Positions 11,710 through 48,895 are shown, counted from the first letter of the stretch. The stretch is 64,000 nucleotides of DNA from a virus (IMGVR_UViG_3300031991_000033); one strand, 5' to 3'. The notes: generated from the sequence alone by a model not told the origin. Numbers and translations are program-made.

Positions 11710-12153
11710 ATGAAACTTCCAGACTTTGTAATCGAAAGGTTTCACATGTTCAATAAATGGCTTAAAAAACGAGAAGTTCCGCAAGAACCACAGCTTCCCA
11801 CGACATTTGAAGAAGCTGCACAGTTTGTCGCAGATCGCATCGAAGCTGACACGGTTCAGCAACCAATGTTTCACATGACGGGAGGAATGGCGGTACGTAA
11901 CTCTCTTGGTTTATGGGATAAAGAAAGCCCCTTGCATAAGCACATGAAGGAGAGATTCGGCTTGTGCCATGCCGACGATACAGGGAGTTTAATCACAAAT
12001 GCTGCACATGCTATCAAGAACGGTCAAGAATACGATCCGCAGGCTGACATCGAGCGTTTCAAGAAGCATTGGCTCTTTATGGGTTACGATCCTGCCACTA
12101 TGGAAAAGATCGGCGACACCCCAGACAGTTTCACAATCGTCGTCACCCGTTGA
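11710..12153 (+). CDS. conserved hypothetical protein
   Basis: GMAVRNSLGLW...HADD pattern; 147-aa ORF. Confidence 0.7.
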   Translation: MKLPDFVIERFHMFNKWLKKREVPQEPQLPTTFEEAAQFVADRIEADTVQQPMFHMTGGMAVRNSLGLWDKESPLHKHMKERFGLCHADDTGSLITNAAHAIKNGQEYDPQADIERFKKHWLFMGYDPATMEKIGDTPDSFTIVVTR

Positions 12154-12361
12154 ATTTACACGCATCAGTATCCCTCTGGTGCGTCGAATTTACCCACAGC
12201 TTATAGCAAGTCAAATTATAGAAGTTCAACCCTTACAAGGTCCAACCTCTTTAATTTACTACTTGCGACATCAATACTCAACCAATAGCGGCGGTCGTCG
12301 TGTACTCGCACATACCGTAGAAAAACCGGAAGACGTGGATTGGGTTAAGGAAGGATTCTGA
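12149..12361 (+). CDS. MCP N-terminal fragment paralog ending WVKEGF (start codon uncertain)
   Basis: 33/44 aa identical to MCP residues 63-106; ends EDVDWVKEGF*; the nearest in-frame ATGs (11999, 12008) lie inside the upstream gene. Confidence 0.75.
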   Translation, partial: VEFTRISIPLVRRIYPQLIASQIIEVQPLQGPTSLIYYLRHQYSTNSGGRRVLAHTVEKPEDVDWVKEGF

Positions 12362-12609
12362 TGACCAATCCGTTTCACCCGGAAATTGAGTTGAATATCG
12401 AAACAACTGTGATCCGTGCTCAACGCCGCAAGTTAAAAGCGACGTGGACGATGGATGTGGAGATTGTCCGACCCGATCCCGCCACCATTGAAGCTCTTAC
12501 AAGAATTGTACTCGACGAATGGAACGCTACCGTGGAAAATATGACCCAAGGTTACGTAACCATATTTGACGAAGAGTACCTTGATGAATGGGTCAAGGAG
12601 GGCTTCTGA
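12361..12609 (+). CDS. MCP mid-region fragment paralog ending WVKEGF
   Basis: PEIELNIETTVIRAQRRKLKATW vs MCP 256-278 (12/23 identical); TGATG coupling; ends DEWVKEGF*. Confidence 0.8.
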   Translation: MTNPFHPEIELNIETTVIRAQRRKLKATWTMDVEIVRPDPATIEALTRIVLDEWNATVENMTQGYVTIFDEEYLDEWVKEGF

Positions 12610-12944
12610 TGTCTTATGCCGATCCAATAGACCCTAATGAACGACCACATTACAACAACCGTGGGATAATTACGAGGTATGCCCCTAAGTTGTTGAAAGA
12701 TGCGGCGAAGTTCTATTCAAGAATAGAAATACGCAACAATCCCAACCCGCCACAGCCGAATCTCAACAACGACATATTTCCCGTCCGTGCGAATGATTTT
12801 ATAGACGCTGGCTACATCTTCACACCTTATGTGCCGTTGATGAGTACACCGCCAGTTTTAGACCCCGATTACATGTCACGTCGGGTGGAACGAGTTGAAG
12901 TTGAAAAAGCGGAAGATGTTGATTGGGTCAAGGAAGGATTCTAA
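12609..12944 (+). CDS. MCP C-terminal fragment paralog (segments swapped) ending WVKEGF
   Basis: matches MCP 460-485 (15/26) and then MCP 430-454 (14/25); ends EDVDWVKEGF*. Confidence 0.8.
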   Translation: MSYADPIDPNERPHYNNRGIITRYAPKLLKDAAKFYSRIEIRNNPNPPQPNLNNDIFPVRANDFIDAGYIFTPYVPLMSTPPVLDPDYMSRRVERVEVEKAEDVDWVKEGF

Positions 12945-12945
12945 A

Positions 12946-13209
12946 ATGTATACACAAACAGAAGAGTGGACAAGATATGGATATTTTGGACGATGTAACA
13001 CTTGTGGATGCGTTGGTGTTAGAGAGTTTACCTTTCACAAAGGTCAACAAGTTTGGTGTGATGTTTGTCGTGATGTAACAAGTAGAAAAATGGGTGTCGC
13101 CCTGCCTTACCAAAGAGAAGAATTATGTACCCATCAACCGGAAGACTCCACTATGACCTCGATACCGAAGGCTATCATCGCTTGGCTGTACAATGTGATC
13201 AAGGTCTAG
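12946..13209 (+). CDS. small Zn-ribbon protein
   Basis: CNTC...CDVC; ATG 2 nt after the upstream stop; 85-nt overlap with the next gene. Confidence 0.55.
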   Translation: MYTQTEEWTRYGYFGRCNTCGCVGVREFTFHKGQQVWCDVCRDVTSRKMGVALPYQREELCTHQPEDSTMTSIPKAIIAWLYNVIKV

Positions 13210-13529
13210 CAGATTGCTACCGCAGTCTGATCCCCAAATACTACAATGCTAAGCGTCCCCGCTATCCCGCCCATATCACTGTTGTGCGTTCGTATAAAGA
13301 GATACCGCCTAATCTTGAACCTTGGGGCAAATACCAAGGCGAGAAGATTGAGTGGTTCTACGAGCCAGTGATTCGGATGGGTACAACCTACTTTTGGCTC
13401 AACGCATTGTGTAATAGACTGGAAGATATCAGAATCGAGCTTGGGCTTCCAGTGCGTAGTGAGTATACTAGACCGCCCGAAGGATTCAGGAAATACTTTC
13501 ACATGACAATCGCCAATATGAAGGATTAA
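13125..13529 (+). CDS. 2H phosphoesterase-family protein
   Basis: two HxT motifs (AHITV, FHMTI) about 77 aa apart. Confidence 0.75.
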   Translation: MYPSTGRLHYDLDTEGYHRLAVQCDQGLADCYRSLIPKYYNAKRPRYPAHITVVRSYKEIPPNLEPWGKYQGEKIEWFYEPVIRMGTTYFWLNALCNRLEDIRIELGLPVRSEYTRPPEGFRKYFHMTIANMKD

Positions 13530-13532
13530 GTA

Positions 13533-13940
13533 ATGGATTACTGTCTAGGTTTCGTTTTCGATCCCAAAAAAGAAAACGTCTTGTTGTTAAAGAAAGCCCG
13601 TCCAGAATGGCAGGCTGGCTTATTCAATGGTGTTGGCGGAAAGATAGAGTCCGATGAGACTCCGCTCGACGCCATGATCCGTGAATTTGAGGAAGAGACC
13701 GGTTACGAGAATCTCGATTGGGGGTATTTCATCGAGATGTACGGTCACGATTGGAGAGTGTACTGCTACAAATCTCAACTACCCTTGAAAGTGTTGATTG
13801 AGATTTGTGGCAATACAAAAGACGCCGAAGAGCCATGTAAACTATTCAGTCCGCAAAACTTGAGCGGCACGATTTCAAATTTGCACTGGCTGATACCGAT
13901 GGCGTTAGACGACATCAGTTACAATTTTGAAAGGACATAA
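13533..13940 (+). CDS. NUDIX hydrolase
   Basis: GGKIESDETPLDAMIREFEEETG Nudix box. Confidence 0.92.
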   Translation: MDYCLGFVFDPKKENVLLLKKARPEWQAGLFNGVGGKIESDETPLDAMIREFEEETGYENLDWGYFIEMYGHDWRVYCYKSQLPLKVLIEICGNTKDAEEPCKLFSPQNLSGTISNLHWLIPMALDDISYNFERT

Positions 13941-14714
13941 ATGAGTGTCCAAGAATGGCTAGGGTGTGACGATCATCAACCTCACATTACCGTAAAGAGC
14001 GGTCACATTCGCAACGAGACGGTTCTCGAATTTGGCGGCGATTTCAGCAAAACCATAGAGTATACATTCAACTCTTATGGTTTTCGTTGCAAAGAATTGA
14101 GTCGTAGTGGTCTAATTTCGGTAGGGTGTAGTATTTGTTGTGGTGTTGGGGTGAGAGAAAACGAAAGGGTGTCCGCAAAACTAGCCAATCATCTAAATCT
14201 CGAAGACTATAACATAGCGTTTCCGGGGAAGAGTATTGACTATTGTTTTAGGATGCTTGATTGGGCGGTGCCGCTATTCCTTCCAAAATTTGTATTCATC
14301 CAAGCACCAGCGGATTCACGAAGAGAACACATTGATGAGTTCGGTGCTTACGATTTTGTTCCTAATGGCACACCGATTTTTGACGGCGAACGGCAACGAG
14401 TTTTCCAAGAATATCGAGACGGTTATTCCAAAATCTATAACGCACACCAAAACGCCATACACTTCTACCAAAAATGCCGAGCCATCGAACACTTGCTGGA
14501 ACGGTATAAAATTCCGTGGTTGATGCTCTTGCCAAAGAAACTCACAGAAGACGTTGCTCAGTTAATGCAAAAAAACCCTCGATACGTGAAGCTCGTAGGC
14601 TCCATTGACCTAGGGTCCGATAATGGTCATCCGGGACCAGAGTCTCATGCACTCTGGACAGAAGGTTTAATTCAGATGCTTACGAAGCATCATTTATCGA
14701 AAGGACAAATATGA
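13941..14714 (+). CDS. SGNH/GDSL-like hydrolase-fold protein
   Basis: NSYGFR, GCS, NIAFPG and D.GHPG motifs. Confidence 0.65.
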   Translation: MSVQEWLGCDDHQPHITVKSGHIRNETVLEFGGDFSKTIEYTFNSYGFRCKELSRSGLISVGCSICCGVGVRENERVSAKLANHLNLEDYNIAFPGKSIDYCFRMLDWAVPLFLPKFVFIQAPADSRREHIDEFGAYDFVPNGTPIFDGERQRVFQEYRDGYSKIYNAHQNAIHFYQKCRAIEHLLERYKIPWLMLLPKKLTEDVAQLMQKNPRYVKLVGSIDLGSDNGHPGPESHALWTEGLIQMLTKHHLSKGQI

Positions 14715-15166
14715 CAATTTCATTCCCAGCACTCGAAGAGAACGGAGAAACAAAAGCTTGGTGGCTCAACAATGGTGCCTTCTGGTTTACAGATGGCGAC
14801 TTCCAACTTGAGTTGATGCCAAGCGAATGTAACATCTTAGCTGAAGAAGGTGCCAAGCATCTTGGCTCAGAAGAACCAGTGCAAATTTGGGAAGCCAAAG
14901 ATTTGATCAGACCGGGTTTGTTTGTAACCACCGCTGATTACAAAGCGGAGATCGTGGGCGACGAGCTACACGTTGAAGAGACGGGCGGGATGAGCCGCAT
15001 GTTTGGTCAAAACATTTCCAAGAAGCACACGGTTAAATTCGACCGTTTCTTGACTCTCCTTCGGGCTTGTTACGGTGAGAAGGAGAGTCTACAAGACGGT
15101 ATGATTTCGCCACTCATGGGTGCTGTTTGTTTACAAGGCGAGAAGGATACGAAGTGCCCGGTTTAG
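14711..15166 (+). CDS. hypothetical protein
   Basis: ATGA coupling; AAAGGA RBS. Confidence 0.7.
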   Translation: MTISFPALEENGETKAWWLNNGAFWFTDGDFQLELMPSECNILAEEGAKHLGSEEPVQIWEAKDLIRPGLFVTTADYKAEIVGDELHVEETGGMSRMFGQNISKKHTVKFDRFLTLLRACYGEKESLQDGMISPLMGAVCLQGEKDTKCPV

Positions 15167-15519
15167 GCGTTCTTCCACTCTTCGCCTTCTTCATCTTCAC
15201 CTTCGACCTCAACGATCATTCCCTTGACCCAACGTCCAGACTCAAGAGAGAAGTTCTCAAGCTCTGACGTGCGGACGAAGAATTTGATCTGGGTTTCGCC
15301 GAGCGGCGTTCCCATAAGTGCATCGAAAAGGAATCCAGCCGAGCCGACAAAACAGATCGGCTCGAAGTTGGTCTCGATTACGCCGTCGTAGCTTCGAGAC
15401 TTGACCCGTTGGATCGGTCGTTTATTCTCCCACATGTCGTAGGCGTTGATGAGCAAAGCTTCACGCAACTGCTCTGTGACGGGGAGACCGCTGGTCATGA
15501 TGCAATAGATACCGTGCAT
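15163..15519 (-). CDS. hypothetical protein
   Basis: GGAGG RBS before MHGIYC; convergent stop overlap. Confidence 0.65.
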   Translation of the reverse strand: MHGIYCIMTSGLPVTEQLREALLINAYDMWENKRPIQRVKSRSYDGVIETNFEPICFVGSAGFLFDALMGTPLGETQIKFFVRTSELENFSLESGRWVKGMIVEVEGEDEEGEEWKNA

Positions 15520-15591
15520 TTTTGAACCTCCACAAACAACAGAAGAAGTGTGTACCATCATATTGTACGCACTTCTTCTGTTTTGTAAAAG

Positions 15592-15999
15592 CTAGACCAA
15601 CTTCCAAAAATTGTTTTCTTCGGTGATCAAATTGCCATTCCAAAGTTGCATCAACACAACACCCAGAGGGACACCGAATTCATGAGCCATCATGTCGAGT
15701 CTCAAGAGCGTCGGCGGCAGTAGTGCGTTCAAAGCATCCATTGCCTGAATGTCTTGCTTCTCGGCTCTTTCAACCAAGACCTTCTGTTGGTCGAAGTCAT
15801 GAATAGCCGGTAGGACTTCTTCAACAATTGGTTTCACGATGTCCAACTCAGGACAGAGATATTTCCATCTCTGCATCAAGTTGTCCAAGTCGTTCTGGTT
15901 TTTGCAGGCACGGAGTTCTTCTCCGTACTGCGATGCTTCCGTGTAGTGGTTGATCTTTAGACCACCGGGGAAGAGATGTGATTCTTTGTACTCGTTCAT
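15592..15999 (-). CDS. hypothetical protein
   Basis: MNEYKES start, coupled to the stop of 15996..16232. Confidence 0.65.
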   Translation of the reverse strand: MNEYKESHLFPGGLKINHYTEASQYGEELRACKNQNDLDNLMQRWKYLCPELDIVKPIVEEVLPAIHDFDQQKVLVERAEKQDIQAMDALNALLPPTLLRLDMMAHEFGVPLGVVLMQLWNGNLITEENNFWKLV

Positions 16000-16232
16000 G
16001 TTTGTTTGTTTTTCGGGATTTGACAGGTTGTGAAGTAACACCACAAGAATCGATAACCAACCCAATCACCGGGTTTGCTTCCGCTATACATCTTGGGTGC
16101 GGCTTTGAAAAGCCACTCTTTGAAGTAGTGAACCCAGAGTTTGGGTGCTCGCCAGAGGTAGCTCATCTTCTCAGGCAAGATGAGCATAAAGGCACTAGAG
16201 CGTTTCTTGGTTTTTCGCTTCCAGACGATCAT
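15996..16232 (-). CDS. small basic/aromatic hypothetical protein
   Basis: ATGA coupling at both ends (gyrA stop and next gene start). Confidence 0.5.
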   Translation of the reverse strand: MIVWKRKTKKRSSAFMLILPEKMSYLWRAPKLWVHYFKEWLFKAAPKMYSGSKPGDWVGYRFLWCYFTTCQIPKNKQT

Positions 16233-18700
16233 ACCTTCTCCGCTTCTTCAACCGTTAGCTTGACCACCGAATCCATGCTGTCGAGCTTGACGATCTTAAC
16301 GCCCATCGTGGTTCGACCAGTGTTCCGAATGTCGCCCTCGCCAAGTCGAATGCACTTGCCTGAACTGGTCATCACCAGAAGCGTGTCACCTTTATCGACA
16401 CAGCAGGCACCAGCCAGCTTGCCGTTCTTGATGATACCCTTCTTGTTCATCACCGAGTAGCCTTTGACGTTGCGGCTACCCAACTTCTTGTATTCGTCGG
16501 ACGAGGTTTTCTTGCCAAGACCACCAGTGGTCACAACCAAGATGTCAGGCACCGATTTTGGATCAACCGTCATCACCTGAACCACTCGGTCGTCTTTGTC
16601 CAACTTCATTGCAGAGGAACCACGTGTTCCTCGACCTTGAGTTGGGATGATACTTTCAGCATATCGAACACATCGTCCATTTGCAGTAACGATGAAGATG
16701 TCCTTGTTGCCCTTGGACAAGAAGGCGAATGCTACTTCATCGTCGTCCACAAGCTTGACGCCCTTGATGCCAGCGTTCTTGCGGCTGGTGTCGTATTCGG
16801 CAATGTCGGTCTTCTTGATGTAACCGTTCTTGGTCACGACCACCAAGAAGCCACGTTGATTGACACTCTTCACTGCAACCATGTTTGTAACATGTTCGCC
16901 ATCCGACAAGCTGAGTAGGTTGCTCACGTGCAATCCCTTGCCTGTCTTGGAAGACTGTGGAACTTCGAACGCACGGCGTTGGTACACGATACCTTTGTTC
17001 GTGAAGAACAAGACGTGATCTTTGCTGTGCATTTCAAACATCTCAGTGATGTTCTCTGGGTCAGCGTTTTTACCAACGCCTTTCGCACCAGTGCCGCCAC
17101 GACCTTGAATCCTGTATTCTTTAACCGGAATGCTGCGAACGTAGCCTTCACCGGTCAAAGACACCACGAGGTTCTCGTCAGGGATCAGGTCTTCGTCAGC
17201 AATCTCGCTGGCATCCAAGGCGAGAGAAGTACGACGGTCATCGCCAATCTTCTTGGAAATATCGTCGAGTTCCTTCACGACAACCTTGAGCAATTCCTTC
17301 TCGCTACCAAGAACTTTGTCAAGCCACTTGATGCGTTCGTTCAAGTTGTCTCGTTCTGCGAGAAGCTTGTCGCTTTCCAGACGAGTCAACTGTCGCAAGG
17401 TGATGGCAAGAACGGCTTTCGCCTGTTCCAAAGTTTGTACAAACTTCTTCTTGATCAATCCTTGTTCGGCGTCTTCCGGTGAATCGGACGCACGGATCAA
17501 GGCAATCACTGCGTCGATCTTATCGGTGATACCGATCAAACCTTCAAGGATGTGAACTCGCTTCTTGGCGGACTCCAACTCAGCATTGAACTTGTTGGTC
17601 AAGATCACCTTGCGGTGGTCCACGAAAGCTTTGACGAGCGTAAGGATCGGTGCGTCTGGCACCACCTTACCATCAATCAGCACGGTACAGTTGACCGAGA
17701 CCGTCTTGCGAAGACATGTGTGTTTGAGAAGTTGGTTGAGAATTAGGCTGGCATTGCCGCCTTTGGCAACTTCAATCACGACACGGATGCCTGTCTTCTT
17801 AGAAGACAGGTTCTTCAAGTCGGCAAGACCTTCCAGCTTGTTCTTTTCTCCATCGACGAGTTTCTCAACGTCAATGCAGAATTGTGCGGGACTTGTTTGG
17901 TAAGGCAACTCGGTGACAATGATTTCAGACTTGCCACCTTTGTGCTTGACGATCTCGTAGTTGCCTTCGCACTTGATGGTTCCGTGACCGGTGGTGTAGT
18001 ATTCGAGTACACCGTCTTGGCTAAGAATCTTGTCACCAGTCGGGAAGTCTGGACCGGGCATCAGGTTGAGAACTTCTTTTGGTGTAATCTTCTTGGGGTT
18101 CTCAATGAATGCCTTGATGACATCGATCACTTCACGCAAATTATGCGGAAGCATTTTGGTCGCCCAACCAACAGCAATACCTTCACAGCCATTCACCAAC
18201 AAGTTGGGGATAGCACTTGGAAGGATTGTTGGCTCTTCTCGTTTTTCGTTGTAGTTGGGGACATAAGGTACGCATTTGTCAGAAAGGTCGGCGAGCATTG
18301 CCGATCCAAACTGAGAAAGTTTTGCTTCGGTGTAACGCATGGCGGCTGGCGGATCACCGTCAACGTTTCCGAAGTTACCTTGACCTAGCACCAGTGGATA
18401 ACGCATCACCCAAGGTTGCACAAGGCGATACATGGTCGGGTAAACGACCGCTTCGCCGTGAGGGTGATAGTTACCACTGGTGTCGCCGCAGATTTTAGCA
18501 CTTTTTTCAGTGCTTGAACCGGGCGAGAGTTTGAGATCGTTCATCGCAACAAGGACACGGCGTTGCGATGGTTTCAGACCGTCACGTGCGTCTGGAAGGG
18601 CACGATCTTCCAGAGACATGAAGGCGTATTGTGTGAACCGCCCGTCCAGAACTTCGGAGAACGGCTCCGTTACCATATTTGTATCGAGTGTTTCAGTCAT
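16229..18700 (-). CDS. gyrA: DNA gyrase subunit A
   Basis: RALPDARDGLKPSQRR, YHPHG, catalytic AAMRYTE, GPDFPTG, GyrA-box-like QGRGGTG and beta-pinwheel CTD repeats. Confidence 0.95.
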   Translation of the reverse strand: MTETLDTNMVTEPFSEVLDGRFTQYAFMSLEDRALPDARDGLKPSQRRVLVAMNDLKLSPGSSTEKSAKICGDTSGNYHPHGEAVVYPTMYRLVQPWVMRYPLVLGQGNFGNVDGDPPAAMRYTEAKLSQFGSAMLADLSDKCVPYVPNYNEKREEPTILPSAIPNLLVNGCEGIAVGWATKMLPHNLREVIDVIKAFIENPKKITPKEVLNLMPGPDFPTGDKILSQDGVLEYYTTGHGTIKCEGNYEIVKHKGGKSEIIVTELPYQTSPAQFCIDVEKLVDGEKNKLEGLADLKNLSSKKTGIRVVIEVAKGGNASLILNQLLKHTCLRKTVSVNCTVLIDGKVVPDAPILTLVKAFVDHRKVILTNKFNAELESAKKRVHILEGLIGITDKIDAVIALIRASDSPEDAEQGLIKKKFVQTLEQAKAVLAITLRQLTRLESDKLLAERDNLNERIKWLDKVLGSEKELLKVVVKELDDISKKIGDDRRTSLALDASEIADEDLIPDENLVVSLTGEGYVRSIPVKEYRIQGRGGTGAKGVGKNADPENITEMFEMHSKDHVLFFTNKGIVYQRRAFEVPQSSKTGKGLHVSNLLSLSDGEHVTNMVAVKSVNQRGFLVVVTKNGYIKKTDIAEYDTSRKNAGIKGVKLVDDDEVAFAFLSKGNKDIFIVTANGRCVRYAESIIPTQGRGTRGSSAMKLDKDDRVVQVMTVDPKSVPDILVVTTGGLGKKTSSDEYKKLGSRNVKGYSVMNKKGIIKNGKLAGACCVDKGDTLLVMTSSGKCIRLGEGDIRNTGRTTMGVKIVKLDSMDSVVKLTVEEAEKV

Positions 18701-18708
18701 TGTTCCCC

Positions 18709-25046: not shown

Positions 25047-25436
25047 ATGATTGTATTATCTGATCGCCAAAGAATCATAGTACAAGCAATCTTCGACCGT
25101 ATCGATGAAACAAGAGATCGTGAAATTGCTGAGATCGAGGAACGTAACTATGTAAGACTGGTTGAGATCAACGAGACTTGTGCTCAACGATTGGCTGAGA
25201 TAGACGCCCAAAAAGAAATTAGGCGTAAGGAACACGAAGAAAAAATGACGGCAATTCGAGCTAGATACGATGCAGAGATTGCCGCTATTGAAGATGAACA
25301 TTTTAGACGTGTTGAAGAAATAGAACTCATGCATCGTCGGCGTTTGGATATGTTGCAAACAGCCTCATTCGGTGTCGATGAGGAAAATGCCACAAACGAG
25401 TTTGACCACATAAATTGGATCAAAGAAGGGTTCTGA
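25047..25436 (+). CDS. coiled-coil protein ending WIKEGF
   Basis: GGAG RBS; charged helical repeats; ends DHINWIKEGF*. Confidence 0.75.
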   Translation: MIVLSDRQRIIVQAIFDRIDETRDREIAEIEERNYVRLVEINETCAQRLAEIDAQKEIRRKEHEEKMTAIRARYDAEIAAIEDEHFRRVEEIELMHRRRLDMLQTASFGVDEENATNEFDHINWIKEGF

Positions 25437-25792
25437 TGTTAAGTTTGGAGCAGATCATCAAATCGATCTTCGCTCACGACCAAGCTGATCGAGATCGTGA
25501 CGCTCAGTCTCAGTATTTCTCGGCAGTTGATCGGAATCCCGGTCGAGCAGTTCATCGACATCATGTTGAAGCTCAAGCTGGCGGCATCACAAGACAATCT
25601 CTTAATGATGCTTTTCGCATCATCAATCAACGCAATTATGATTGGAACGCTCATCATAATGTTCCTATGAATTTTGATCGTGAAGCTCTTGATCAAATGT
25701 TCGCACAATACGCTGATACAATCGTCACCCCATCGCCTCCCGAACCAGAAGATTCCGCCGATGAGGTAAATTGGATCAAAGAAGGATTCTGA
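25436..25792 (+). CDS. hypothetical protein ending WIKEGF
   Basis: TGATG coupling; Pro/acidic linker then DEVNWIKEGF*. Confidence 0.75.
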   Translation: MLSLEQIIKSIFAHDQADRDRDAQSQYFSAVDRNPGRAVHRHHVEAQAGGITRQSLNDAFRIINQRNYDWNAHHNVPMNFDREALDQMFAQYADTIVTPSPPEPEDSADEVNWIKEGF

Positions 25793-27550: not shown

Positions 27551-27961
27551 ATGAAGCTCTATTTCGACGGCTCTTGTGGACCGAAAAATCCCGGTGGTTA
27601 CGCTTGCTGGGCATTCGTGATCATCAAGGACGGCAAAGAAATTGCCCGCAGAACCGGGATTGAATGCCAAGGTGAAGGAGCAACGAACAACGTGGCTGAG
27701 TACGCAGGTTTGAAACATGGTTTGCAGTACATGATCCAAGAAAACATCACGCAAGAAGTTGAAATTTTTGGCGATTCAAAACTTGTAATCAGCCAAGTTA
27801 ACGGTGAATGGAAATGCAAATCTGCTCATTTGAAACTCTGGTTAGAAATGATCCACGAGTTGCTGAATCAATTCAGTTTGTGGAGTGCGAATTGGGTTCC
27901 ACGCAATGAGAACTCGTTAGCAGACGGTCTTTCTAAATGGGAATCAGTTGTCAATGCGTGA
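27551..27961 (+). CDS. rnhA: ribonuclease HI
   Basis: YFDGS..NPG, TNNVAEY, GDSKLVI.Q..G.W and WVPR..N..AD. Confidence 0.92.
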   Translation: MKLYFDGSCGPKNPGGYACWAFVIIKDGKEIARRTGIECQGEGATNNVAEYAGLKHGLQYMIQENITQEVEIFGDSKLVISQVNGEWKCKSAHLKLWLEMIHELLNQFSLWSANWVPRNENSLADGLSKWESVVNA

Positions 27962-28268
27962 ATACAGTGCCCTCGACCGGATGAATATCCGCCGTGCAGT
28001 CATCCACACCAGAGATACAATCAAGAATATCATCCAAGACTGTATCGGCGACGGTGAACTTGAGGGCGTTGTCGAAGACATAGAAGAATATCTCCAATGT
28101 TCTGGTCACTACTTGAGCTATTGGAGCGACTACATCATGGATTATAACCCCGATGGGTATCTTACGATAAAACTCTTTTGGAAGGGCGATCATTGTGCTA
28201 CAATCACCTTCCGCAGCGTCACGGGCACATACGTCGAAGACGTTGATTGGGTAAAAGAAGGATTCTGA
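27954..28268 (+). CDS. protein resembling the tail-sheath C-terminal domain, ending WVKEGF
   Basis: SALDRMNIRR resembles the sheath motif SALDRINVRR; ends EDVDWVKEGF*. Confidence 0.7.
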   Translation: MREYSALDRMNIRRAVIHTRDTIKNIIQDCIGDGELEGVVEDIEEYLQCSGHYLSYWSDYIMDYNPDGYLTIKLFWKGDHCATITFRSVTGTYVEDVDWVKEGF

Positions 28269-40813: not shown

Positions 40814-40849
40814 GCAAATATCTATCAATCCAACTCTGATAATGGAGAT

Positions 40850-42337: not shown

Positions 42338-42386
42338 AAAAAATACCCTCTCGATACTCTCTTAACAGGTACGAGAGGGTATTTTT
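42338..42386. terminator. inverted repeat / bidirectional terminator
   Basis: aaaaataccctctcg...cgagagggtattttt. Confidence 0.7.
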
Positions 42387-43392: not shown

Positions 43393-43411
43393 TCGGTTTC
43401 CTACATAGAGT

Positions 43412-43684
43412 ATGAGATTCAAGACTTGGGTTGAACCATACATGCAGGAATTTTTTATACCGGGAACCACTCACACACGTCCACAGGACATTACAAATGT
43501 GGGAATGGGTGTCGGATCGAAGTACGTTAGCGACGATGAAGCTGGTGTGCCGAAAAATAAAGAAATAGTAAAGACTGCTGACTTTGGTGTAGATACCCAA
43601 GAAGAGAAAGAAGAATCCGAGAAACTAAAACGTTTGCGTAGGCTTAAGGCTTTCAGAAACCTTCAAAGGAGAAACTATGTCTAA
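43412..43684 (+). CDS. small protein with capsid-targeting-like N-terminus
   Basis: MRFKTWVE; TACATA 4 nt before ATG. Confidence 0.65.
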   Translation: MRFKTWVEPYMQEFFIPGTTHTRPQDITNVGMGVGSKYVSDDEAGVPKNKEIVKTADFGVDTQEEKEESEKLKRLRRLKAFRNLQRRNYV

Positions 43685-44018
43685 CCCAAAGAGTCCAATC
43701 ATCACGTTCAGCGTCAACATCGCTGCACCGATGCAAGAATCAATTGGTCCTGTCACCAATTCGAAGAACACCGCTGTATTGCACCCAGATCGTCACGTAG
43801 ATGATCAGGATGTTGGATATCAGCAACAAGTCCAGCATGATACCCTTCGTAGTACGTATATTCCGGGTTTCTTGAATGGCGAGAACATTGTTAAAAACAA
43901 TGATGGCACTATTACCGCTTATGGTATGAAGGCAAAGTATCTGATGGATACTTACACCACTGGTGCTAACCCAATCCTTTCAGTTGTATCGATCTCATCT
44001 GAATCTGAACTTGCATAA
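43677..44018 (+). CDS. hypothetical protein
   Basis: AAGGAG RBS. Confidence 0.7.
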   Translation: MSNPKSPIITFSVNIAAPMQESIGPVTNSKNTAVLHPDRHVDDQDVGYQQQVQHDTLRSTYIPGFLNGENIVKNNDGTITAYGMKAKYLMDTYTTGANPILSVVSISSESELA

Positions 44019-44029
44019 CGGGGGTCTTA

Positions 44030-44422
44030 ATGGGACTCACGTATTCTGAGTTACTCGCCTTGATGGAAATGGCGACCAACCAAGACCCAATGTCAGGCGA
44101 TTTGATGGGAAGTGGTCAAGAAAGCTCTGCAATGAAAGTTGTACGAGCCGGGATGAATCTACGTGAAGACGAAGATGACATGGAGTTTTGGAATGACTTT
44201 ATGCAACTTTGTGGAGATGCTGAAGGTATGGCAGAACTTTTAGGAGTTAAGTCTGCTGAGGTACGACGATGGACTGCGAGAATTCGTGAGAATATCGACA
44301 AAGTGCGTGAGATCAACTCTACTAACCCGGAAGGGGAAGACAACAGTAAGTTGATGGCTACTGGCGATAACGACGGTGCTGTCACTGTTGGTAATGATGG
44401 TCTTGCTGCCAGAAGAGGTTAG
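44030..44422 (+). CDS. acidic hypothetical protein
   Basis: GGGGG RBS; 130-aa ORF. Confidence 0.7.
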   Translation: MGLTYSELLALMEMATNQDPMSGDLMGSGQESSAMKVVRAGMNLREDEDDMEFWNDFMQLCGDAEGMAELLGVKSAEVRRWTARIRENIDKVREINSTNPEGEDNSKLMATGDNDGAVTVGNDGLAARRG

Positions 44423-44442
44423 TCGGTTGAAGGAAACCCGGA

Positions 44443-46479
44443 ATGACAAAAGTTGTAAGAGAGAAAAACAAAAGGAAGTTGCTTACGCAACGTACCGCAA
44501 TGGAACGTGCCAAAACGCCGTTCGTTAACTCTCACGGCATGAACGCCGAACAGTTGAGAGATAAATTGCTTCAGACCTCTAGTCAGCTTAATGAAAGACC
44601 CGGAGTTCTAAAGATTGCTTCTACTCAACAAAGACCGCAACAACGTAAAGCGATTTCCAGAAACCAGACTGAATCTAATCGTCGTCACAAACCTGACAAA
44701 GCTCCCAAAACCAGCACTGAAGATTCACCAAGGTTGTTGATTGATGTACCCAGCGTTGGTACAAAACTATCGGTAGAGTACCCAACACCGGACTGGTTCA
44801 AATATAAAGGCAAGGCAGAAGTTTCTGTCGTTGTGCCTTTGTATAAGTCTGCCGGTGTTGTTAAAGATTTAATTGATTCTTGGGATGTAATCAACGACGG
44901 CATTAAAGTCGAGGTCATCTTCGTAGATGATAGTTGCCCAAACAGTACCAAAGATGTAATTGCTCAATACTGGCAGCATCGCAAACATGAACTGCCTCAT
45001 GGTGTTGGAAAGTTGATCTTCAATACTCAAAACAAAGGGTATGGCGGTGCCTGTAACACGGGTGCGGAATACGCAACTGGCGATTACATCATTTACCTCA
45101 ATGCTGATACCACAGTAACACCCGGTTGGGTTAAACCAATCGTCGATGCTTTCAAAAACGATCCGGCTGTTGGAATCGTTGGCAATATGCAGTTGAAAGA
45201 AGGCGGCACTTGGCATGGGACTATCGATGGTGCCGGGTCTGAGTGGACTTGGAGTAGTGGTAGCTTTACCCATATTGGGCGGCATAGTTACGAACGTAAT
45301 ATGCTACCTTTCCCTTGGAAGCCATCAGAAGCCCCGGCTGATATTCTTCAGCTTGGCGAGAGAGAGATGGTAACCGGTTGTTGTCTAGCAATTCGTGCGG
45401 ATTTGAACCGTGATATGGGTGGTTTTAATCCAAACTTCCGTGTTGGTTATTGGGAAGATTCCGACCTGTGTATGAGTGTACGTGAAAAAGGATGGAAGGT
45501 TGTTTGCGAACCAAATTCTGTAATTTATCACAAACTTGGTCACACAAACTCTGGTGCTCACGAACACCATGACTTCAATCGTAATTATTTCTGGAACAAA
45601 TGGGTTGACTCTGGTCGCCTTGATCCATTAGTAAAAGACAAAAGATACAACAAGCGAGAAATCAAGAGCATCTTACTACAACGTAAAGGTGCTCATGGTG
45701 ATGTTTTAGTTGCTTCTTATCTTGCTTCTGCTTTGAAGAAAAAGTATCCCGGTTGTCGTATCGGCTTCTACACAAAATGCCCCGCAGTATTGCGAAATAA
45801 CCCCCACATTTCCAAGGTATTTTCAGAAGTTACTTTCTCTGAAAGACAATTTCAGTTGGTTTACAATCTGGATATGGTTTACGAATTCCGACCTTGGATC
45901 AATGTTTTGCAAGCCTACGCAGATATGGTTGGTGTTAAGGTTGAAGAATGCGAGCCGTATATTGCCAAAGAAGGTTTCGACGGTCTTCCAGATGAACCTT
46001 ATGTTGTGCTTCATGCGGGTAGAACAAATTGGGTGGGTCGAGATTGGAATGTGAATCATTTTGACGAGATCGCCAAACGATTACTGCATTTGGGCAAAAA
46101 GGTTGTTTGCATTGGAACAGAAGCCGATAGGCGAACTCCATGCGACATTGACCTGCGTGGTCGAACATCAATTACACAACTAGCTGGTGTGATTTCTCAA
46201 GCCGAGGCTTTTGTGGGCATTGATTCTTTCCCTTTTCATGTTGCTCAGGCTGTAGGTACAAAAGGTGCATGTTTCTTTGGTTCCATACTACCGCAGACTA
46301 GAATTTATCAAGACAACATGAAAGGTGTTTCTGTTTCTGATTTACCTTGTATTGGTTGTCACCATAGAAAGCCTCGCCCATCTGTTGTTACAAACATTTG
46401 TGAAACTGGAACTCATGATTGTGTAAACAATCTATCTGTAGACATGTTCTGGTCAAAGATCGAAGAAGTCCTCCAATAA
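44443..46479 (+). CDS. fused GT2 plus GT9 (heptosyltransferase-like) glycosyltransferase
   Basis: VSVVVPLY, VDD.CP, LNADT and YWEDSDLC (GT2); GAHGDVL, DLRGRTS and FVGIDSFP.H.A (GT9). Confidence 0.88.
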   Translation: MTKVVREKNKRKLLTQRTAMERAKTPFVNSHGMNAEQLRDKLLQTSSQLNERPGVLKIASTQQRPQQRKAISRNQTESNRRHKPDKAPKTSTEDSPRLLIDVPSVGTKLSVEYPTPDWFKYKGKAEVSVVVPLYKSAGVVKDLIDSWDVINDGIKVEVIFVDDSCPNSTKDVIAQYWQHRKHELPHGVGKLIFNTQNKGYGGACNTGAEYATGDYIIYLNADTTVTPGWVKPIVDAFKNDPAVGIVGNMQLKEGGTWHGTIDGAGSEWTWSSGSFTHIGRHSYERNMLPFPWKPSEAPADILQLGEREMVTGCCLAIRADLNRDMGGFNPNFRVGYWEDSDLCMSVREKGWKVVCEPNSVIYHKLGHTNSGAHEHHDFNRNYFWNKWVDSGRLDPLVKDKRYNKREIKSILLQRKGAHGDVLVASYLASALKKKYPGCRIGFYTKCPAVLRNNPHISKVFSEVTFSERQFQLVYNLDMVYEFRPWINVLQAYADMVGVKVEECEPYIAKEGFDGLPDEPYVVLHAGRTNWVGRDWNVNHFDEIAKRLLHLGKKVVCIGTEADRRTPCDIDLRGRTSITQLAGVISQAEAFVGIDSFPFHVAQAVGTKGACFFGSILPQTRIYQDNMKGVSVSDLPCIGCHHRKPRPSVVTNICETGTHDCVNNLSVDMFWSKIEEVLQ

Positions 46480-46516
46480 CCCATATATAAGCTGGGGAAC
46501 TTTAGGAGGTCTATCC

Positions 46517-47473
46517 ATGCTCAAAATTCAAGCAAAAGATTACAGTTGCCGACTATTCCTATTCGAGAGGGTAGATTGCCTTTCGATGCAGGAAGTCAAA
46601 CAGAATGTAGGTTGGGGGATTACTGCTTTTGATTTGCCAAAGGCTTGGGAATTCACCCAAGGCGAAGGCGTTGTAATTGCTGTGATTGATACGGGTTGTG
46701 ATTTAGATCATCCTGACCTAAAGGCAAACCTGATTCCGGGTTACAATTTCATTAAGCCCGGCACGCCGCCAGAAGACGATAATGGTCATGGTACGCACGT
46801 AACAGGCACTCTCGTTGCGGAAAACAACACCATTGGAATGGTTGGTGTTTGTCCAAAAGCGAAGGTCATGCCACTCAAAGCTCTTGATCAAGATGGCAAT
46901 GGCAATATGCTTAACATTGCCAAGGCGATTCGGTATGCTGCCAACAACGGTGCCGATTTTATCTCAATGTCTCTTGGGGCACCGATTCCTGTAGGCGAAG
47001 TTCGCAAGGCAATTAAGTATGCACTTGGCAAAGGTGTGATTACATTCGTAGCTGCCGGTAACGTTGGGAATACAAAAGAAGTATTCTATCCAGCCGCCTA
47101 CCCAGAAACGATTGCCGTTGGTGCTGTTGATTTGGAACTACACAGAGCGAGTTTCTCAAACACTGGTAAAAACCTAGATTTCATGGCACCGGGAGTAGAC
47201 ATCTATTCAACGGTTCCCGATGATTGGTATGCCAAGATGAGCGGCACGAGTATGGCACAACCTTTTGTGTGCGGAGTGGCTGCTTTGGTTAAGAGTTATG
47301 TCGTTGTGCATGGCAAACGACCAGATATTGAGTTAAAGACTGCGATTGATTACCGACGCTTGTTGATGGAAAACACTATTCCGGTAAACAATGGAAATTA
47401 TGACGATCCGAAATTTTATCAAGGTTTTGGTATCATCGATCCACGTAAGTTTATGGAATCAATCAAGCGTTAA
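46517..47473 (+). CDS. subtilisin-like S8 serine protease
   Basis: VIDTG, HGTHV.G, AAGN and SGTSMA catalytic motifs. Confidence 0.95.
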   Translation: MLKIQAKDYSCRLFLFERVDCLSMQEVKQNVGWGITAFDLPKAWEFTQGEGVVIAVIDTGCDLDHPDLKANLIPGYNFIKPGTPPEDDNGHGTHVTGTLVAENNTIGMVGVCPKAKVMPLKALDQDGNGNMLNIAKAIRYAANNGADFISMSLGAPIPVGEVRKAIKYALGKGVITFVAAGNVGNTKEVFYPAAYPETIAVGAVDLELHRASFSNTGKNLDFMAPGVDIYSTVPDDWYAKMSGTSMAQPFVCGVAALVKSYVVVHGKRPDIELKTAIDYRRLLMENTIPVNNGNYDDPKFYQGFGIIDPRKFMESIKR

Positions 47474-47861
47474 AATCCTTCTTTGATCCAGTCAACCTCT
47501 TCAGCCGGAAGTGTTCGTTCGAGCTTCCGGCTGGCTTTTTGTAGTGCCCAATATCTTAACCAATCGCTCTCTGGTGAGTTCTCGCCCGGTTCTCGCCCGG
47601 TTCTCGAATATGGCGTAGAATTTCTGAAAATCGATTTGGGACATCTCGCAGGCGAATGCGTCCCATTCCTTGTCTGACAGGATTTTCTGGATGTTGCACA
47701 AATTCTACAATGTCGCCGACAATCAAGTATTCTCCTTGATCATCCATGAAAGATAAAGGTCTTTTGGTTGAGTAAGACCTTTCTTCGTAGTAATCGTAGC
47801 AAGCAAAATGAATTGTTTGATCAATTATGCTGACTACTTCTCCAACAACGATGTCAGACAC
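47470..47861 (-). pseudogene. WIKEGF-tagged protein frameshifted by an 11-bp tandem duplication
   Basis: GGAGG RBS plus GTG at 47861; removing one gttctcgcccg unit gives ...REPGENSPESDWLRYWALQKASRKLERTLPAEEVDWIKEGF*. Confidence 0.75.
47578..47606. repeat. 11-bp tandem repeat (gttctcgcccg x2.6)
   Basis: read directly from the sequence. Confidence 0.95.
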
Positions 47862-48316
47862 TTGAATACCTCCAATAGATAATTCACGGTGTATTCGTAC
47901 AAGCCGGGGCACTTGGACTCTCGATTCCCAGCGACGTTCAAGATTTTGATATCGTTGTCCAGAATCCATCTTGCAACCTTCTCGTGTTCTTGGGGTGCAT
48001 GTACGCTTACATCATAGTACGGCTTTCCATACTGTTCAATAGCTTTGAGTGTACAAATTTCACCAGCACTGTAGAAATTATGGGCAAATCGGATTGTCCC
48101 GTCAGAATCTCGTGCATTGGCGTGCGTTCGAGGAACATAACTAGAAGAAGAGTGTTCTACGATTCCGTAGAGATCGGCAAGATCGGGGCGTGGTCCATCT
48201 TCAGTAAGAAAACCTTTAGGAATCCAGCCGCCAGTTTCGAGACCGAAACGCTTGGCAGCTTCCAAACCGCCTTGATCAGCACCCGTTTGAGCACCTGATA
48301 CAATCTTTGTAAGCAT
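47834..48316 (-). CDS. SLOG-superfamily (putative molybdenum-carrier-like) protein
   Basis: KIVSGAQTGAD.GGL, GGWIPKGF..EDG, N.RDSDGT and LNVAGNRES. Confidence 0.85.
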   Translation of the reverse strand: MLTKIVSGAQTGADQGGLEAAKRFGLETGGWIPKGFLTEDGPRPDLADLYGIVEHSSSSYVPRTHANARDSDGTIRFAHNFYSAGEICTLKAIEQYGKPYYDVSVHAPQEHEKVARWILDNDIKILNVAGNRESKCPGLYEYTVNYLLEVFKCLTSLLEK

Positions 48317-48317
48317 C

Positions 48318-48638
48318 TCAAAATCCTTCTTTGACCCAATCAACTTCGGAATATGCAACGCCTTGATTGGAGAGGCATTGAATGTAGTCGTTTAGACTAC
48401 CGTGATTGTCTTTTATGAAACGCAATGTTTTGGGTTCTTGGTTTTGTGAAACCACCCAAGTGAATTCATCCGACAATAGTTTAGACTCAGTGATTATCAC
48501 GCCATGAATTGCTGAGTGGTGCAATAACCGAGTTTTGATGAAACTTACGGCTTCTGAGAAAGAGTGGAAGTAGTAATCTTCAAGATGACCCATCCATTCA
48601 ATGAATCCGTAATACTTTATAGTCCTTCTTTTATCCAT
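48318..48638 (-). CDS. hypothetical protein ending WVKEGF
   Basis: ends SEVDWVKEGF*. Confidence 0.7.
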   Translation of the reverse strand: MDKRRTIKYYGFIEWMGHLEDYYFHSFSEAVSFIKTRLLHHSAIHGVIITESKLLSDEFTWVVSQNQEPKTLRFIKDNHGSLNDYIQCLSNQGVAYSEVDWVKEGF

Positions 48639-48895
48639 TCGTCTGAGTCCATTGGCACATTTTTGACATGTGCAAAGTGTTCAATGTCAGGGATTCCAGA
48701 CTCAGGATGTGGGGTGACTTTGAAGCCAAACACAACTTCTGCACCCTTTACAAGCCCAGATTTCTCTGGTGGCTCGTATCTGTTAGGGAACAAGTCAAGA
48801 CCTATCACACGCTTAAGGTTGTTGGCTTTTACAAGCACAACGCCCTCTCGCCTGTCGATAGTAACAATTTCTCCGTGATGTTCTTTTACAGTCAT
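48617..48895 (-). CDS. small beta-rich (OB-like?) protein ending WIKEGL
   Basis: ATGA coupling to the McsA-like gene; ends DSDEWIKEGL*. Confidence 0.7.
   Translation of the reverse strand: MTVKEHHGEIVTIDRREGVVLVKANNLKRVIGLDLFPNRYEPPEKSGLVKGAEVVFGFKVTPHPESGIPDIEHFAHVKNVPMDSDEWIKEGL

What the first reader, a model, noticed from the sequence alone, without database searches (positions are those of the whole stretch)
12149..48895. Nine unrelated small proteins share a conserved C-terminal tag, W[VI]KEG[FL]-stop: candidate phage adaptor/decoy system
Seen: nine reading frames in four separate loci, on both strands, end in the same peptide. The Trp-to-stop spans are 12341-12361 (EDVDWVKEGF), 12589-12609 (YLDEWVKEGF), 12924-12944 (EDVDWVKEGF), 25416-25436 (DHINWIKEGF), 25772-25792 (DEVNWIKEGF), 28248-28268 (EDVDWVKEGF), 47470-47490 (EEVDWIKEGF), 48318-48338 (SEVDWVKEGF) and 48617-48637 (DSDEWIKEGL). 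The codons vary synonymously (gtt/gtc/gta, atc/ata, aag/aaa, gaa/gag, gga/ggc/ggg, ttc/ttt, tga/taa) and the motif always abuts the stop. This points to selection on the peptide and its free C-terminus, not on a DNA repeat. The N-terminal parts are unrelated: capsid fragments, a sheath-like domain, a coiled coil and small beta domains, mostly followed by an acidic or Pro linker. Inference: a modular 'variable binding domain plus common docking tag' family that delivers different targets to one shared partner (protease/unfoldase, clamp or TPR receptor), or acts as a degron or sorting signal. Known precedents for shared C-terminal docking peptides are the T4 gp45 clamp-binding tails of gp33/gp55/gp43 and the ssrA tag. 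I do not recognise this motif.
Basis: partly seen in the sequence, partly recalled or inferred. Interest (0 to 1): 0.95.

Follow-up and report, generated by a model that had tools for sequence, protein, structure and literature searches.

The report
Shared C-terminal tag on phage mini-proteins
A fragment of a very large T4-like phage, and dozens of other uncultured phages, end many unrelated small proteins in the same peptide, [VI][DN]-W-x-K-E-G-F-stop. Several carriers are re-coded pieces of the phage's own capsid protein, and in a relative also of the tail sheath, which points to an undescribed "bait plus common handle" system whose receptor is still unknown.

Summary
All nine W[VI]KEG[FL] hits in the 157.8-kb record abut a stop; shuffles give none.

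- **Selection is on the peptide.** Third codon positions vary freely.
- **The tag is widespread.** I collected 127 distinct tagged C-termini from about 60 viral or metagenomic contigs (31-57% GC), mostly huge T4-like phages plus one HK97-like phage. One contig has about 25 tagged genes in 12 kb.
- **Consensus:** acidic-acidic-[VI]-[DN]-W-x-K-E-G-F-COOH.
- **It is not a host motif.** It was not enriched in 401 Planctomycetota genomes.
- **Carriers A, B and C are pieces of the phage's own gp23-type capsid protein.** C is circularly permuted. Tagged capsid pieces recur in four clades, and one relative has a clear tail-sheath piece. F and I look sheath-like but are not significant.
- **Carrier G is broken** by an 11-nt tandem duplication.
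- **The large terminase ends in a similar tail,** KEFGW.

The receptor was not found. No shared phage gene stood out, and one complex prediction gave no verdict.

Best reading: a modular docking handle on fast-evolving bait proteins. The closest known analogue is the T4 capsid-targeting sequence on diverse internal proteins. Whether the system acts as decoy or adaptor, capsid loading signal, or assembly cap is unresolved.

The parts
12149..12361 (+). Tagged mini-gene A. It is a re-coded copy of MCP residues 62-111 (N-arm, the region homologous to the T4 Gol peptide by my memory) plus a linker and EDVDWVKEGF. The true start is uncertain: the frame is open from 11999, and the upstream gene ends at 12153.
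   Evidence: Pfam Gp23 E 7.8e-12, 45.7 bits, profile positions 3-48. phrog_138 E 1.9e-11. 70% identity to the phage's own MCP over 50 aa.
12361..12609 (+). Tagged mini-gene B (82 aa). It corresponds to MCP residues 256-311 (start of the spine helix, RKLKA-W motif) plus YLDEWVKEGF. Its ATG overlaps the stop of A.
   Evidence: BLASTP against the phage's own MCP: 30% over 56 aa, E 1e-6 pairwise. An L011 homologue matches the same MCP region.
12609..12944 (+). Tagged mini-gene C (111 aa). It is a circular permutation of the MCP C-terminal region: MCP 460-485 comes first, then MCP 407-454, then a charged linker and EDVDWVKEGF.
   Evidence: Two BLASTP segments, E 3e-9 and 3e-8. Pfam Gp23 positions 310-338, below the cut-off. 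The genome search PF07068 hit.
25047..25436 (+). Tagged gene D (129 aa from the ATG at 25047). Coiled-coil-like, ending DHINWIKEGF.
   Evidence: No family found. A tagged coiled-coil counterpart lies in the syntenic locus L024.
25436..25792 (+). Tagged gene E (118 aa). Its ATG overlaps the stop of D. It has a Pro/acidic linker and ends DEVNWIKEGF.
   Evidence: No family found.
27954..28268 (+). Tagged gene F (104 aa), lying between RNase H and GMP reductase. It may be a mimic of the tail-sheath C-terminal domain. Ends EDVDWVKEGF.
   Evidence: A homologue in L012 sits in the same synteny. hhalign of F 3-26 against sheath 677-700 gives P 0.005, but the Smith-Waterman score lies within the shuffle null. 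Model pLDDT 75.7. Sheath C-domains and gp25/TssE appear among the structure hits, but at Z 5.3-7.5, which is within noise.
47470..47969 (-). Tagged gene G, broken by an 11-nt tandem duplication at 47584-47605. The tag frame (EEVDWIKEGF) has no start of its own.
48318..48638 (-). Tagged gene H (up to 106 aa), ending SEVDWVKEGF. The cpYpsA gene starts just after its stop.
   Evidence: No family found.
48617..48895 (-). Tagged gene I (92 aa), a small beta-rich protein ending DSDEWIKEGL. It carries an 'FG..PHPESG.P' motif like the sheath N-terminus. It lies directly downstream of the McsA-like gene.
   Evidence: blastp-short against the sheath orthologue gives E 0.04, which is not significant against shuffles.
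5062..6528 (+). Full-length T4 gp23-type major capsid protein (488 aa), the source of the pieces in A, B and C.
   Evidence: PF07068 E 2.1e-85. Sequence. The propeptide site ELLAE|A is visible in the sequence.

Best explanation
The peptide [ED][ED]-[VI]-[DN]-W-x-[K]-E-G-F-COOH is a short linear docking handle that must sit at the free C-terminus. It is attached to a fast-evolving set of small 'bait' proteins, often arranged in translationally coupled tandem arrays. A recurrent class of bait is a re-coded fragment of the phage's own polymerising virion proteins: the most conserved MCP segments (N-arm/Gol-like region, spine helix, C-terminal strands), and, in at least one relative, the tail sheath.

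The handle tethers whatever each bait binds to one common receptor. My preferred reading (inferred, not shown) is an adaptor or decoy system. The capsid-like and sheath-like baits would engage proteins that recognise these conserved virion surfaces, such as host sensors of capsid or sheath proteins or unassembled subunits. The handle would then deliver or sequester the complex at the common receptor.

Shown: the motif, its position at the C-terminus, peptide-level selection, modularity, spread across phage lineages, and the capsid-derived baits (sheath-derived in one relative). Inferred: that a receptor exists, what it is, and the outcome of docking.
For: - The motif is far beyond chance and always terminal.
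- Codon third positions are free.
- The logo from 127 distinct C-termini has W-6, G-2 and F-1 at 100%, E-3 at 97%, [DN]-7 at 91%, [VI]-8 at 72% and K-4 at 69%.
- The AlphaFold2 model of an L017 paralogue (pLDDT 91.5) shows the last ~13 residues at lower confidence as a short helical turn after the last strand; I take this to mean an accessible tail, though packing was not examined.
- Carriers are unrelated to each other and have no Pfam or PHROG family, apart from the MCP pieces.
- Tagged MCP pieces occur in four clades: G0 A-C; L011, five pieces; G406; L107 (phrog_138 E 3.7e-7).
- G406 has a sheath piece, E 7e-4. The sheath itself was identified by Pfam.
- The repertoire is accessory and plastic. 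G404, whose MCP is 84% identical and which is 91% complete, has only 4 degenerate tags and no MCP mini-genes. LR756511 (595 kb) and G405 have none. L017 has about 25 tags in 12 kb.
- The tag occurs in an HK97-like phage (G1) that shares no detectable protein with G0 except a weak ClpP-family hit.
- Background: bacterial immune receptors that sense major capsid proteins are documented (bioRxiv 10.64898/2026.01.04.697583).
Against: - No receptor was identified.
- No host protein carries the motif: 8 hits against 5 control hits in 401 Planctomycetota genomes, and 4 hits in 185,579 species genomes, of which one is real and lies on a phage-like contig. The tag is therefore not mimicry of a host motif.
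- Nothing shows that the baits bind anything.
- A decoy that resembles an immune trigger could activate a sensor rather than block it.
- The F-sheath and I-sheath similarities are not significant on their own.
- There is no expression or virion-proteome data.
Confidence: 0.4

Rival explanations
1. Capsid or prohead targeting signal. This would be a C-terminal counterpart of the T4 capsid-targeting sequence (CTS) or of encapsulin and HK97-protease loading peptides. Tagged proteins dock on the scaffold, shell, portal or prohead protease, are packaged as internal or ejected proteins, and are released by the gp21-type protease cutting ..K-E|G-F.
For: - G0 has a complete T4-type head module: T4-type TerL, gp20 portal, S77 protease (E 1e-27), scaffold and gp23 MCP.
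- In T-even phages, diverse anti-defence internal proteins share only a conserved CTS (PMC3012670). Hypervariable arrays such as L017 resemble such loci.
- E-3/G-2 fits Glu at P1 and a small residue at P1'. The G0 MCP propeptide site is ELLAE|A.
- In the G0 clade, position -5 is V, I or M, as the T4 rule (hydrophobic-x-Glu, from my memory of the T4 literature) would require.
- The TerL of this clade ends in a similar conserved tail, [IL][LM][KR]EFGW-stop.
- Most tag-bearing clades have gp23-type MCPs.
Against: - G1 is HK97-like, with a ClpP-type prohead protease and no S77 or gp23.
- G409 (74% complete) shows no gp23.
- Position -5 is K, Q or E in G406 and L017, which does not fit a hydrophobic P3.
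- G0 already has a T4 CTS-like N-terminal motif on 11-14 other proteins, and none of the nine tagged proteins carries it.
- Sheath fragments make odd head cargo.
- Cutting after E would remove only two residues.
Confidence: 0.22
2. Assembly-control caps. The MCP and sheath fragments bind the polymerisation surfaces of unassembled MCP and sheath subunits and prevent premature or aberrant assembly (polyhead or polysheath type). The tag is the handle by which the caps are held or later removed.
For: - The fragments are the most conserved MCP blocks: N-arm, spine helix and C-terminal strands.
- The G406 piece covers the conserved sheath motif NPIVQ..IWGQ..L.
- C is circularly permuted, as if to present a folded sub-structure.
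- Tagged MCP pieces are conserved across four clades.
Against: - Many carriers are not virion-protein fragments: the L017 family, a MORN-like repeat protein, coiled coils.
- Close relatives with 84% identical MCP do without them.
- No binding has been shown.
Confidence: 0.13
3. C-terminal degron or timer. The tag makes its carriers substrates of a host or phage protease so that they are short-lived or act as competitive substrates.
For: - The tag is strictly C-terminal and appears exposed in the model.
- G0 encodes ClpP and a McsA-like protein, and three tagged genes lie in the McsA-like operon.
Against: - The motif is unlike known bacterial C-degrons (ssrA LAA type; from memory).
- ClpP is also present in tag-less LR756511 and absent from tag-bearing G409.
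- The McsA-like gene is absent from all other tag-bearing DNA held.
Confidence: 0.1
4. Nascent-peptide or translation-level signal. The last residues act inside the ribosome at termination, for example to promote termination-reinitiation in coupled arrays.
For: - The motif always abuts the stop.
- In 31 of 47 tags an ATG lies within -1 to +2 nt of the stop.
- The ribosome would be a receptor common to all phages.
- The AAR-GAR-GGN codons resemble a Shine-Dalgarno sequence.
Against: - Tight gene packing is usual in phages.
- 14 of 47 tags have no nearby ATG.
- The G codon's third position and AAA/AAG and GAA/GAG vary freely, so an SD is not what is conserved.
- Conservation extends to -10, including W and [DN], with no known arrest motif (from memory).
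Confidence: 0.05

Closest known systems
T4 capsid-targeting sequence (CTS) on T-even internal proteins (IPI, IPII, IPIII and their polymorphic loci)
   Same: Diverse, fast-evolving small phage proteins, known or thought to be anti-defence, share nothing but a short conserved terminal peptide that directs them to one common site (PMC3012670). The phage has a T4-type head with an S77 protease. The genes sit in arrays.
   Different: The CTS is N-terminal and is removed by gp21. Here the peptide is C-terminal with a different sequence, and it also occurs in an HK97-like phage. G0 carries a separate CTS-like N-terminal motif on other proteins. Baits made of MCP or sheath fragments are not, to my knowledge, a feature of the IP loci.
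Encapsulin cargo-loading peptides and the C-terminal capsid-targeting tail of the HK97 prohead protease
   Same: A short C-terminal peptide shared by unrelated cargo docks on the inner surface of an HK97-fold shell (from established literature, recalled from memory).
   Different: The consensus differs. No evidence here places the tagged proteins inside capsids. The carriers include fragments of the shell protein itself.
SspB-type protease adaptors (substrate-binding domain, linker, C-terminal ClpX-tethering peptide), and viral adaptor families such as poxvirus ANK/PRANC proteins
   Same: The architecture is a variable binding module plus a conserved C-terminal tether to one hub. In the viral case the families are multigene, accessory and rapidly diversifying. 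This comparison concerns how the system may work only.
   Different: There is no sequence similarity to the SspB tether (LRVVK, from memory) and no demonstrated hub. A flexible linker is present in only some carriers.
T4 Gol peptide of gp23, and capsid-sensing immune proteins (Lit, CapRel, Avs7/Dsr1)
   Same: Mini-gene A corresponds to the gp23 segment that contains the Gol region in T4 (my alignment from memory of T4 gp23). Major capsid proteins are documented immune triggers.
   Different: No defence gene, sensor or EF-Tu link was examined or found here. The decoy role is inference.

Membership tests
T4-type CTS-bearing internal proteins | About 10-residue targeting peptide at the N-terminus, removed by the prohead protease | tested here: not met
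   The shared peptide is at the C-terminus in all 127 cases. None of the nine carriers starts with the CTS-like motif.
T4-type CTS-bearing internal proteins | Phage has a gp21-type (S77) protease and scaffold core | tested here: inconclusive
   Present in G0 and its relatives. Absent from the HK97-like G1, which has two tags.
T4-type CTS-bearing internal proteins | Proteins are found inside the virion | not testable with these tools
   The phage is uncultured and there are no proteomes.
Substrates of the S77 prohead protease (hydrophobic-x-Glu| rule) | Hydrophobic residue at P3, Glu at P1, small residue at P1' | tested here: inconclusive
   E-3 is 97% conserved and G-2 100%. Position -5 is V, I or M in the G0 clade but K, Q or E in G406 and L017.
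T4 gp45 clamp-binding C-terminal tails (gp43, gp33, gp55) | The phage encodes a gp45-type sliding clamp | tested here: not met
   PF02916 was not found in G0, G404 (91% complete), G1, G2 or LR756511. Most of these records are incomplete.
Clp-ATPase IGF/LGF loop mimics that dock on ClpP | [LIV]-G-[FL] tripeptide | tested here: not met
   Position -3 is Glu in 97% of tags.
ssrA-like C-terminal degrons | Non-polar C-terminal tripeptide (LAA type) | tested here: not met
   The tag ends E-G-F. The degron consensus is from memory.
Class III PDZ ligands | [DE]-x-hydrophobic-COOH at the extreme C-terminus | tested here: met
   E-G-F-COOH fits by sequence only. No PDZ partner was sought, and known bacterial PDZ proteins are mostly extracytoplasmic (from memory). 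This is a lead, not a membership claim.
Gp23 major capsid protein family (PF07068), for mini-genes A, B and C | Significant match to the family profile | tested here: met
   A scores 45.7 bits against a 24.4-bit cut-off, covering profile positions 3-48 only. C scores 15.1 bits, below the cut-off. B matches only through pairwise comparison with the phage's own MCP. All three are fragments, not full members.
Tail-sheath C-terminal domain (PF17482), for F | Sequence or fold match to the sheath C-terminal domain | tested here: inconclusive
   No Pfam hit. hhalign P 0.005 over 24 columns. Smith-Waterman score within the shuffle null. Phi812 sheath at Z 7.5, among unrelated hits of equal Z.

The most novel reading that the evidence does not exclude
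Huge phages encode a library of re-coded fragments of their own most conserved virion proteins (capsid, sheath), together with other baits. All carry one C-terminal handle that couples them to a single receptor. The library would work as a programmable trap: a decoy or targeted-removal system for host immune sensors that recognise conserved virion proteins. This would be a phage counter-measure of a kind not yet described.
Probability: 0.2. Interest if true: 0.95.

Novelty: new variant of a known kind. Interest (0 to 1): 0.8.

Why it matters
A strictly conserved, phage-specific C-terminal peptide is shared by well over a hundred unrelated proteins in many uncultured phages, most of them huge. 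This implies one undiscovered receptor and gives a handle for finding it: the peptide can be synthesised and used for pull-downs.

The recurrent tagged mini-genes made from the phage's own capsid protein, and in one relative the tail sheath, are to my knowledge unprecedented. Three readings follow:
- If they act against capsid-sensing immunity, they would reveal a new anti-defence principle.
- If they are loading signals, they would extend the T4 CTS idea to a C-terminal signal usable for protein packaging.
- If they are assembly caps, they would bear on how very large capsids and tails are built.

The tag also gives annotators a simple way to flag a whole class of dark-matter phage genes.

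Tried and rejected
**Rejected explanations**
- DNA repeat or RBS as the cause of conservation: rejected because third positions are free.
- Host endogenous motif: not enriched in 401 Planctomycetota genomes or in the 185,579-species collection.
- gp45-type clamp: not found.
- T4 late promoter TATAAATA: none in 158 kb.

**Searches for a shared phage-encoded partner**
- BLAST and phmmer between G0, G1 and G2 found only a CoaD-like protein and a weak ClpP-family hit.
- McsA-like, S8 protease and cpYpsA neighbours have no homologues in any other tag-bearing DNA held.
- ClpP family: present in tag-less LR756511 and absent from tag-bearing G409, so it does not discriminate.
- Neighbour clustering across about 60 loci showed only clade synteny.

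**Complex prediction**
- Tag tails against two copies of G0 ClpP: no verdict.

**Database and literature searches**
- Tag profile against 5.8 billion proteins: only 10 unnamed metagenome proteins.
- Literature search for the motif: nothing.
- Earlier scan notes on relatives: nothing.
- The look-up of encoding contigs for B: not on record.

**Carriers D, E, G and H**
- No significant similarity to any G0 or G404 protein.

**Structure searches**
- L017 paralogue: no clear PDB or Atlas relative. Best Foldseek E 2.7e-3 at TM 0.2; best VIA Z 5.8.

**Expression and read data**
- No RNA holder listed for the A-C region.
- Contigs laid on 47300-49000: only the probable source run covers G, so nothing can be said on whether the 11-nt duplication is polymorphic.

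Full report
**Names used.** G0 is the 157,792-bp IMG/VR record that contains the window. Lxxx are fetched loci. A to I are the nine tagged reading frames in window order.

**The observation**

The window lies at 6938-70937 of the 157,792-bp IMG/VR record, which CheckV estimates as 31% complete.

- In the whole record these nine are the only occurrences. All nine are followed directly by a stop, and none is internal.
- Forty shuffles of the genome gave zero hits.
- KEGF is by far the most common four-residue ORF ending in the record, with 8 occurrences against at most 2 for any other.

**One reading frame is broken**

The tag frame at 47470-47490 (G) has no start codon. An 11-nt tandem duplication, GAGAACCGGGC x2 at 47584-47605, separates it from the 137-aa ORF 47556-47969. 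Reading with one copy gives a continuous 162-aa tagged protein.

**Selection acts on the peptide**

In 47 tags from many contigs the third codon positions are free. Gly uses GGA 17, GGT 12, GGC 9 and GGG 9. Phe uses TTT 28 and TTC 18. Val uses all four GTN codons, and all three stops occur.

The K-E-G codons look like a Shine-Dalgarno sequence, and 31 of 47 tags have an ATG within -1 to +2 nt of the stop. However, the free third positions and the conservation of W, [DN] and [VI] further upstream exclude a nucleotide-level explanation.

**Spread of the tag**

- Back-translated patterns found the tag in IMG/VR contigs, in 26 metagenome stretches, and on one phage-like contig binned with a Pirellulaceae MAG.
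- Chance hits on very short ORFs were few.
- In all I hold 127 distinct tagged C-termini on ORFs of at least 40 aa.
- The logo is: acidic at -10 and -9; V or I at -8 (72%); D or N at -7 (91%); W at -6 (100%); any residue at -5; K at -4 (69%; otherwise Q, E or R); E at -3 (97%); G at -2 and F at -1 (100%).
- GC content of the contigs runs from 31% to 57%.
- Arrays are common: five or six tags in L011 and L026, five in G406, and about 25 of 26 consecutive genes in L017 (12.7 kb of a 120-kb contig), most with ATGs overlapping the preceding stop.

**The tag is phage-specific**

W-x-K-E-G-F-stop gave 8 hits against 5 control hits in 401 Planctomycetota genomes. Only the phage-like Pirellulaceae contig hit looks real. 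A planctomycete host is suggested by that contig and by an earlier scan note on a planctomycete-type bL12 fragment in this genome. I did not test the host assignment further.

**The carriers**

G0 is T4-like in its head genes. It has a T4-type TerL, a gp20 portal with an intein, an S77 (gp21-type) protease, a scaffold, and a gp23-type MCP at window 5062-6528.

- A is MCP 62-111, 70% identical, with a Pfam Gp23 E-value of 7.8e-12.
- B is MCP 256-311.
- C is MCP 460-485 followed by MCP 407-454, that is, a circular permutation.
- L011 (33% GC) is syntenic with window 7971-13529 at 47-71% protein identity. It carries five tagged MCP pieces where G0 has three.
- G406, the closest TerL relative (72%), has an array containing a 43-aa MCP piece and a 77-aa piece of the tail sheath. 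The sheath piece matches sheath residues 638-676 at E 7e-4. The sheath itself was identified by Pfam.
- In a fourth clade, a 70-aa tagged ORF in L107 hits the MCP profile at the spine helix, E 3.7e-7.
- F resembles the start of the sheath C-terminal domain: hhalign P 0.005, and sheath and gp25/TssE chains at Z 5.3-7.5 among the structure hits.
- I shares an FG..PHPESG.P motif with the sheath N-terminus.
- Both the F and the I similarities fall within shuffle or noise ranges, so I call them suggestive only.
- D, E, G, H, the roughly 150-aa L017 family and the other carriers have no detectable family.
- The L017 paralogue folds confidently (pLDDT 91.5). Its last ~13 residues are at lower confidence and form a short helical turn. 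It has no clear structural relative.

**The repertoire is accessory**

G404 (458.8 kb, 91% complete, MCP 84% identical) has only four degenerate tags and no MCP mini-genes. G405 (234.6 kb) and LR756511.1 (595 kb, TerL 48% identical) have none.

**Search for the receptor**

- G0, the HK97-like G1 (two tags flanking terS) and G2 share almost no detectable proteins. The only hits are a CoaD-like protein and a weak ClpP-family match.
- The McsA-like, cpYpsA and S8-protease genes around G, H and I occur in no other tag-bearing DNA I hold.
- ClpP is also present in tag-less LR756511 and is missing from tag-bearing G409.
- No gp45-type clamp was found.
- One data-derived lead remains. The TerL of G0 ends ..PHDGIMKEFGW-stop, and eight relatives end [IL][LM][KR]EFGW-stop. 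It is the only other gene in G0 with a tag-like end.
- This TerL tail is conserved even where tags are absent, and G1's TerL lacks it. It may mark a shared docking site in the packaging machinery, or it may be a coincidence.

**Interpretation**

The facts fit a modular design: a variable bait plus a constant C-terminal handle that needs its free end.

The closest documented case is the T-even internal-protein system, in which diverse anti-defence proteins share only a capsid-targeting sequence (PMC3012670). That signal, however, is N-terminal. G0 has its own CTS-like N-terminal motif (MxxFxE[FW]L) on 11-14 other proteins.

The recurrence of tagged capsid fragments, and of a sheath fragment in one relative, is the most telling and least precedented feature. 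It suits three models:
- a decoy or adaptor acting on proteins that recognise conserved virion surfaces (capsid-sensing immunity is documented);
- a cap on polymerisation surfaces;
- less obviously, head cargo.

I commit to the docking-handle adaptor/decoy model at 0.4. The rivals are capsid targeting at 0.22, assembly caps at 0.13, a degron at 0.10, and a translation-level signal at 0.05.

**Limits**

There are no expression data, no virion data and no binding data. The one complex prediction gave no verdict and is listed only under things tried.

Noticed in passing
window 10157, 10684, 21622, 22045, 60729(-); also G000:C1:2273, 90629(-), 122859, 137411(-), 154957: Eleven to fourteen G0 proteins begin with M-x-x-F-x-E-[FW]-L, for example MKTFKEFLLNE, MRTFREFLERE and MKTFTQWLENV. 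This is much like the T4 capsid-targeting sequence MKTYQEFIAE (from memory). Of 51 core-motif occurrences, 14 lie in the first 15 residues. This is a second shared terminal motif in the same phage. It includes a UvrD-like helicase.
   Followed up: partly
G000:C1:1-1836 (upstream of the window); L056-L063: The T4-type large terminase ends in a conserved tail, [IL][LM][KR]EFGW-stop, in G0 and in eight relatives. The tail resembles the tag.
   Followed up: partly
window 1-19 and upstream (G000:C1:4440-6956): The gp20-type portal gene (838 aa) carries an intein splicing domain at about residues 113-325.
   Followed up: no
window 47584-47605: An 11-nt tandem duplication (GAGAACCGGGC x2) frameshifts tagged gene G. 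Whether it is polymorphic could not be told.
   Followed up: partly
window 12945-13209: A small CxxC...CxxC zinc-ribbon ORF starts 1 nt after the stop of C. It was missed by a simple longest-ORF call.
   Followed up: no
window 48892-49464 (-): A 190-aa protein with two CxxC zinc fingers and a UVR-like C-terminal helix resembles McsA, the activator of the McsB arginine kinase (by eye; no Pfam hit). It heads the operon McsA-like, I, H, cpYpsA (SLOG), G, which converges on an S8 subtilase.
   Followed up: partly
L080-L082 (G404:C1:304000-358000, + strand): Eighteen ORFs end in D-T-N-stop and eight in N-T-N-stop within about 55 kb of the relative G404. This may be another shared ending, or a conserved intergenic DNA signal read in frame.
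   Followed up: no
L123:1228-1692 (G407): An untagged 154-aa paralogue of the C-terminal half of the MCP, which keeps the MCP's own ..ANFVI end, lies next to an actin-like gene in a 245-kb, 57% GC relative.
   Followed up: no
G000:C1:120370-120825(-) and 156842-157795: Two further G0 proteins match the insertion-domain part of the MCP of G404 (31% over 114 aa; 47% over 97 aa). They are untagged.
   Followed up: no
L017:1559-2035 and 10752-11399: Two tagged proteins in the L017 array consist of tandem ~23-aa repeats (..AYxYAKxVIKxRWxEAE..). L011:3-401 is a tagged MORN-like repeat protein.
   Followed up: no
P0005 (ENA contig, 835 bp): This is a strain variant in which mini-genes B and C are fused into one 164-aa ORF. 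It has a short internal duplication, has lost B's tag, and keeps only the terminal tag.
   Followed up: no
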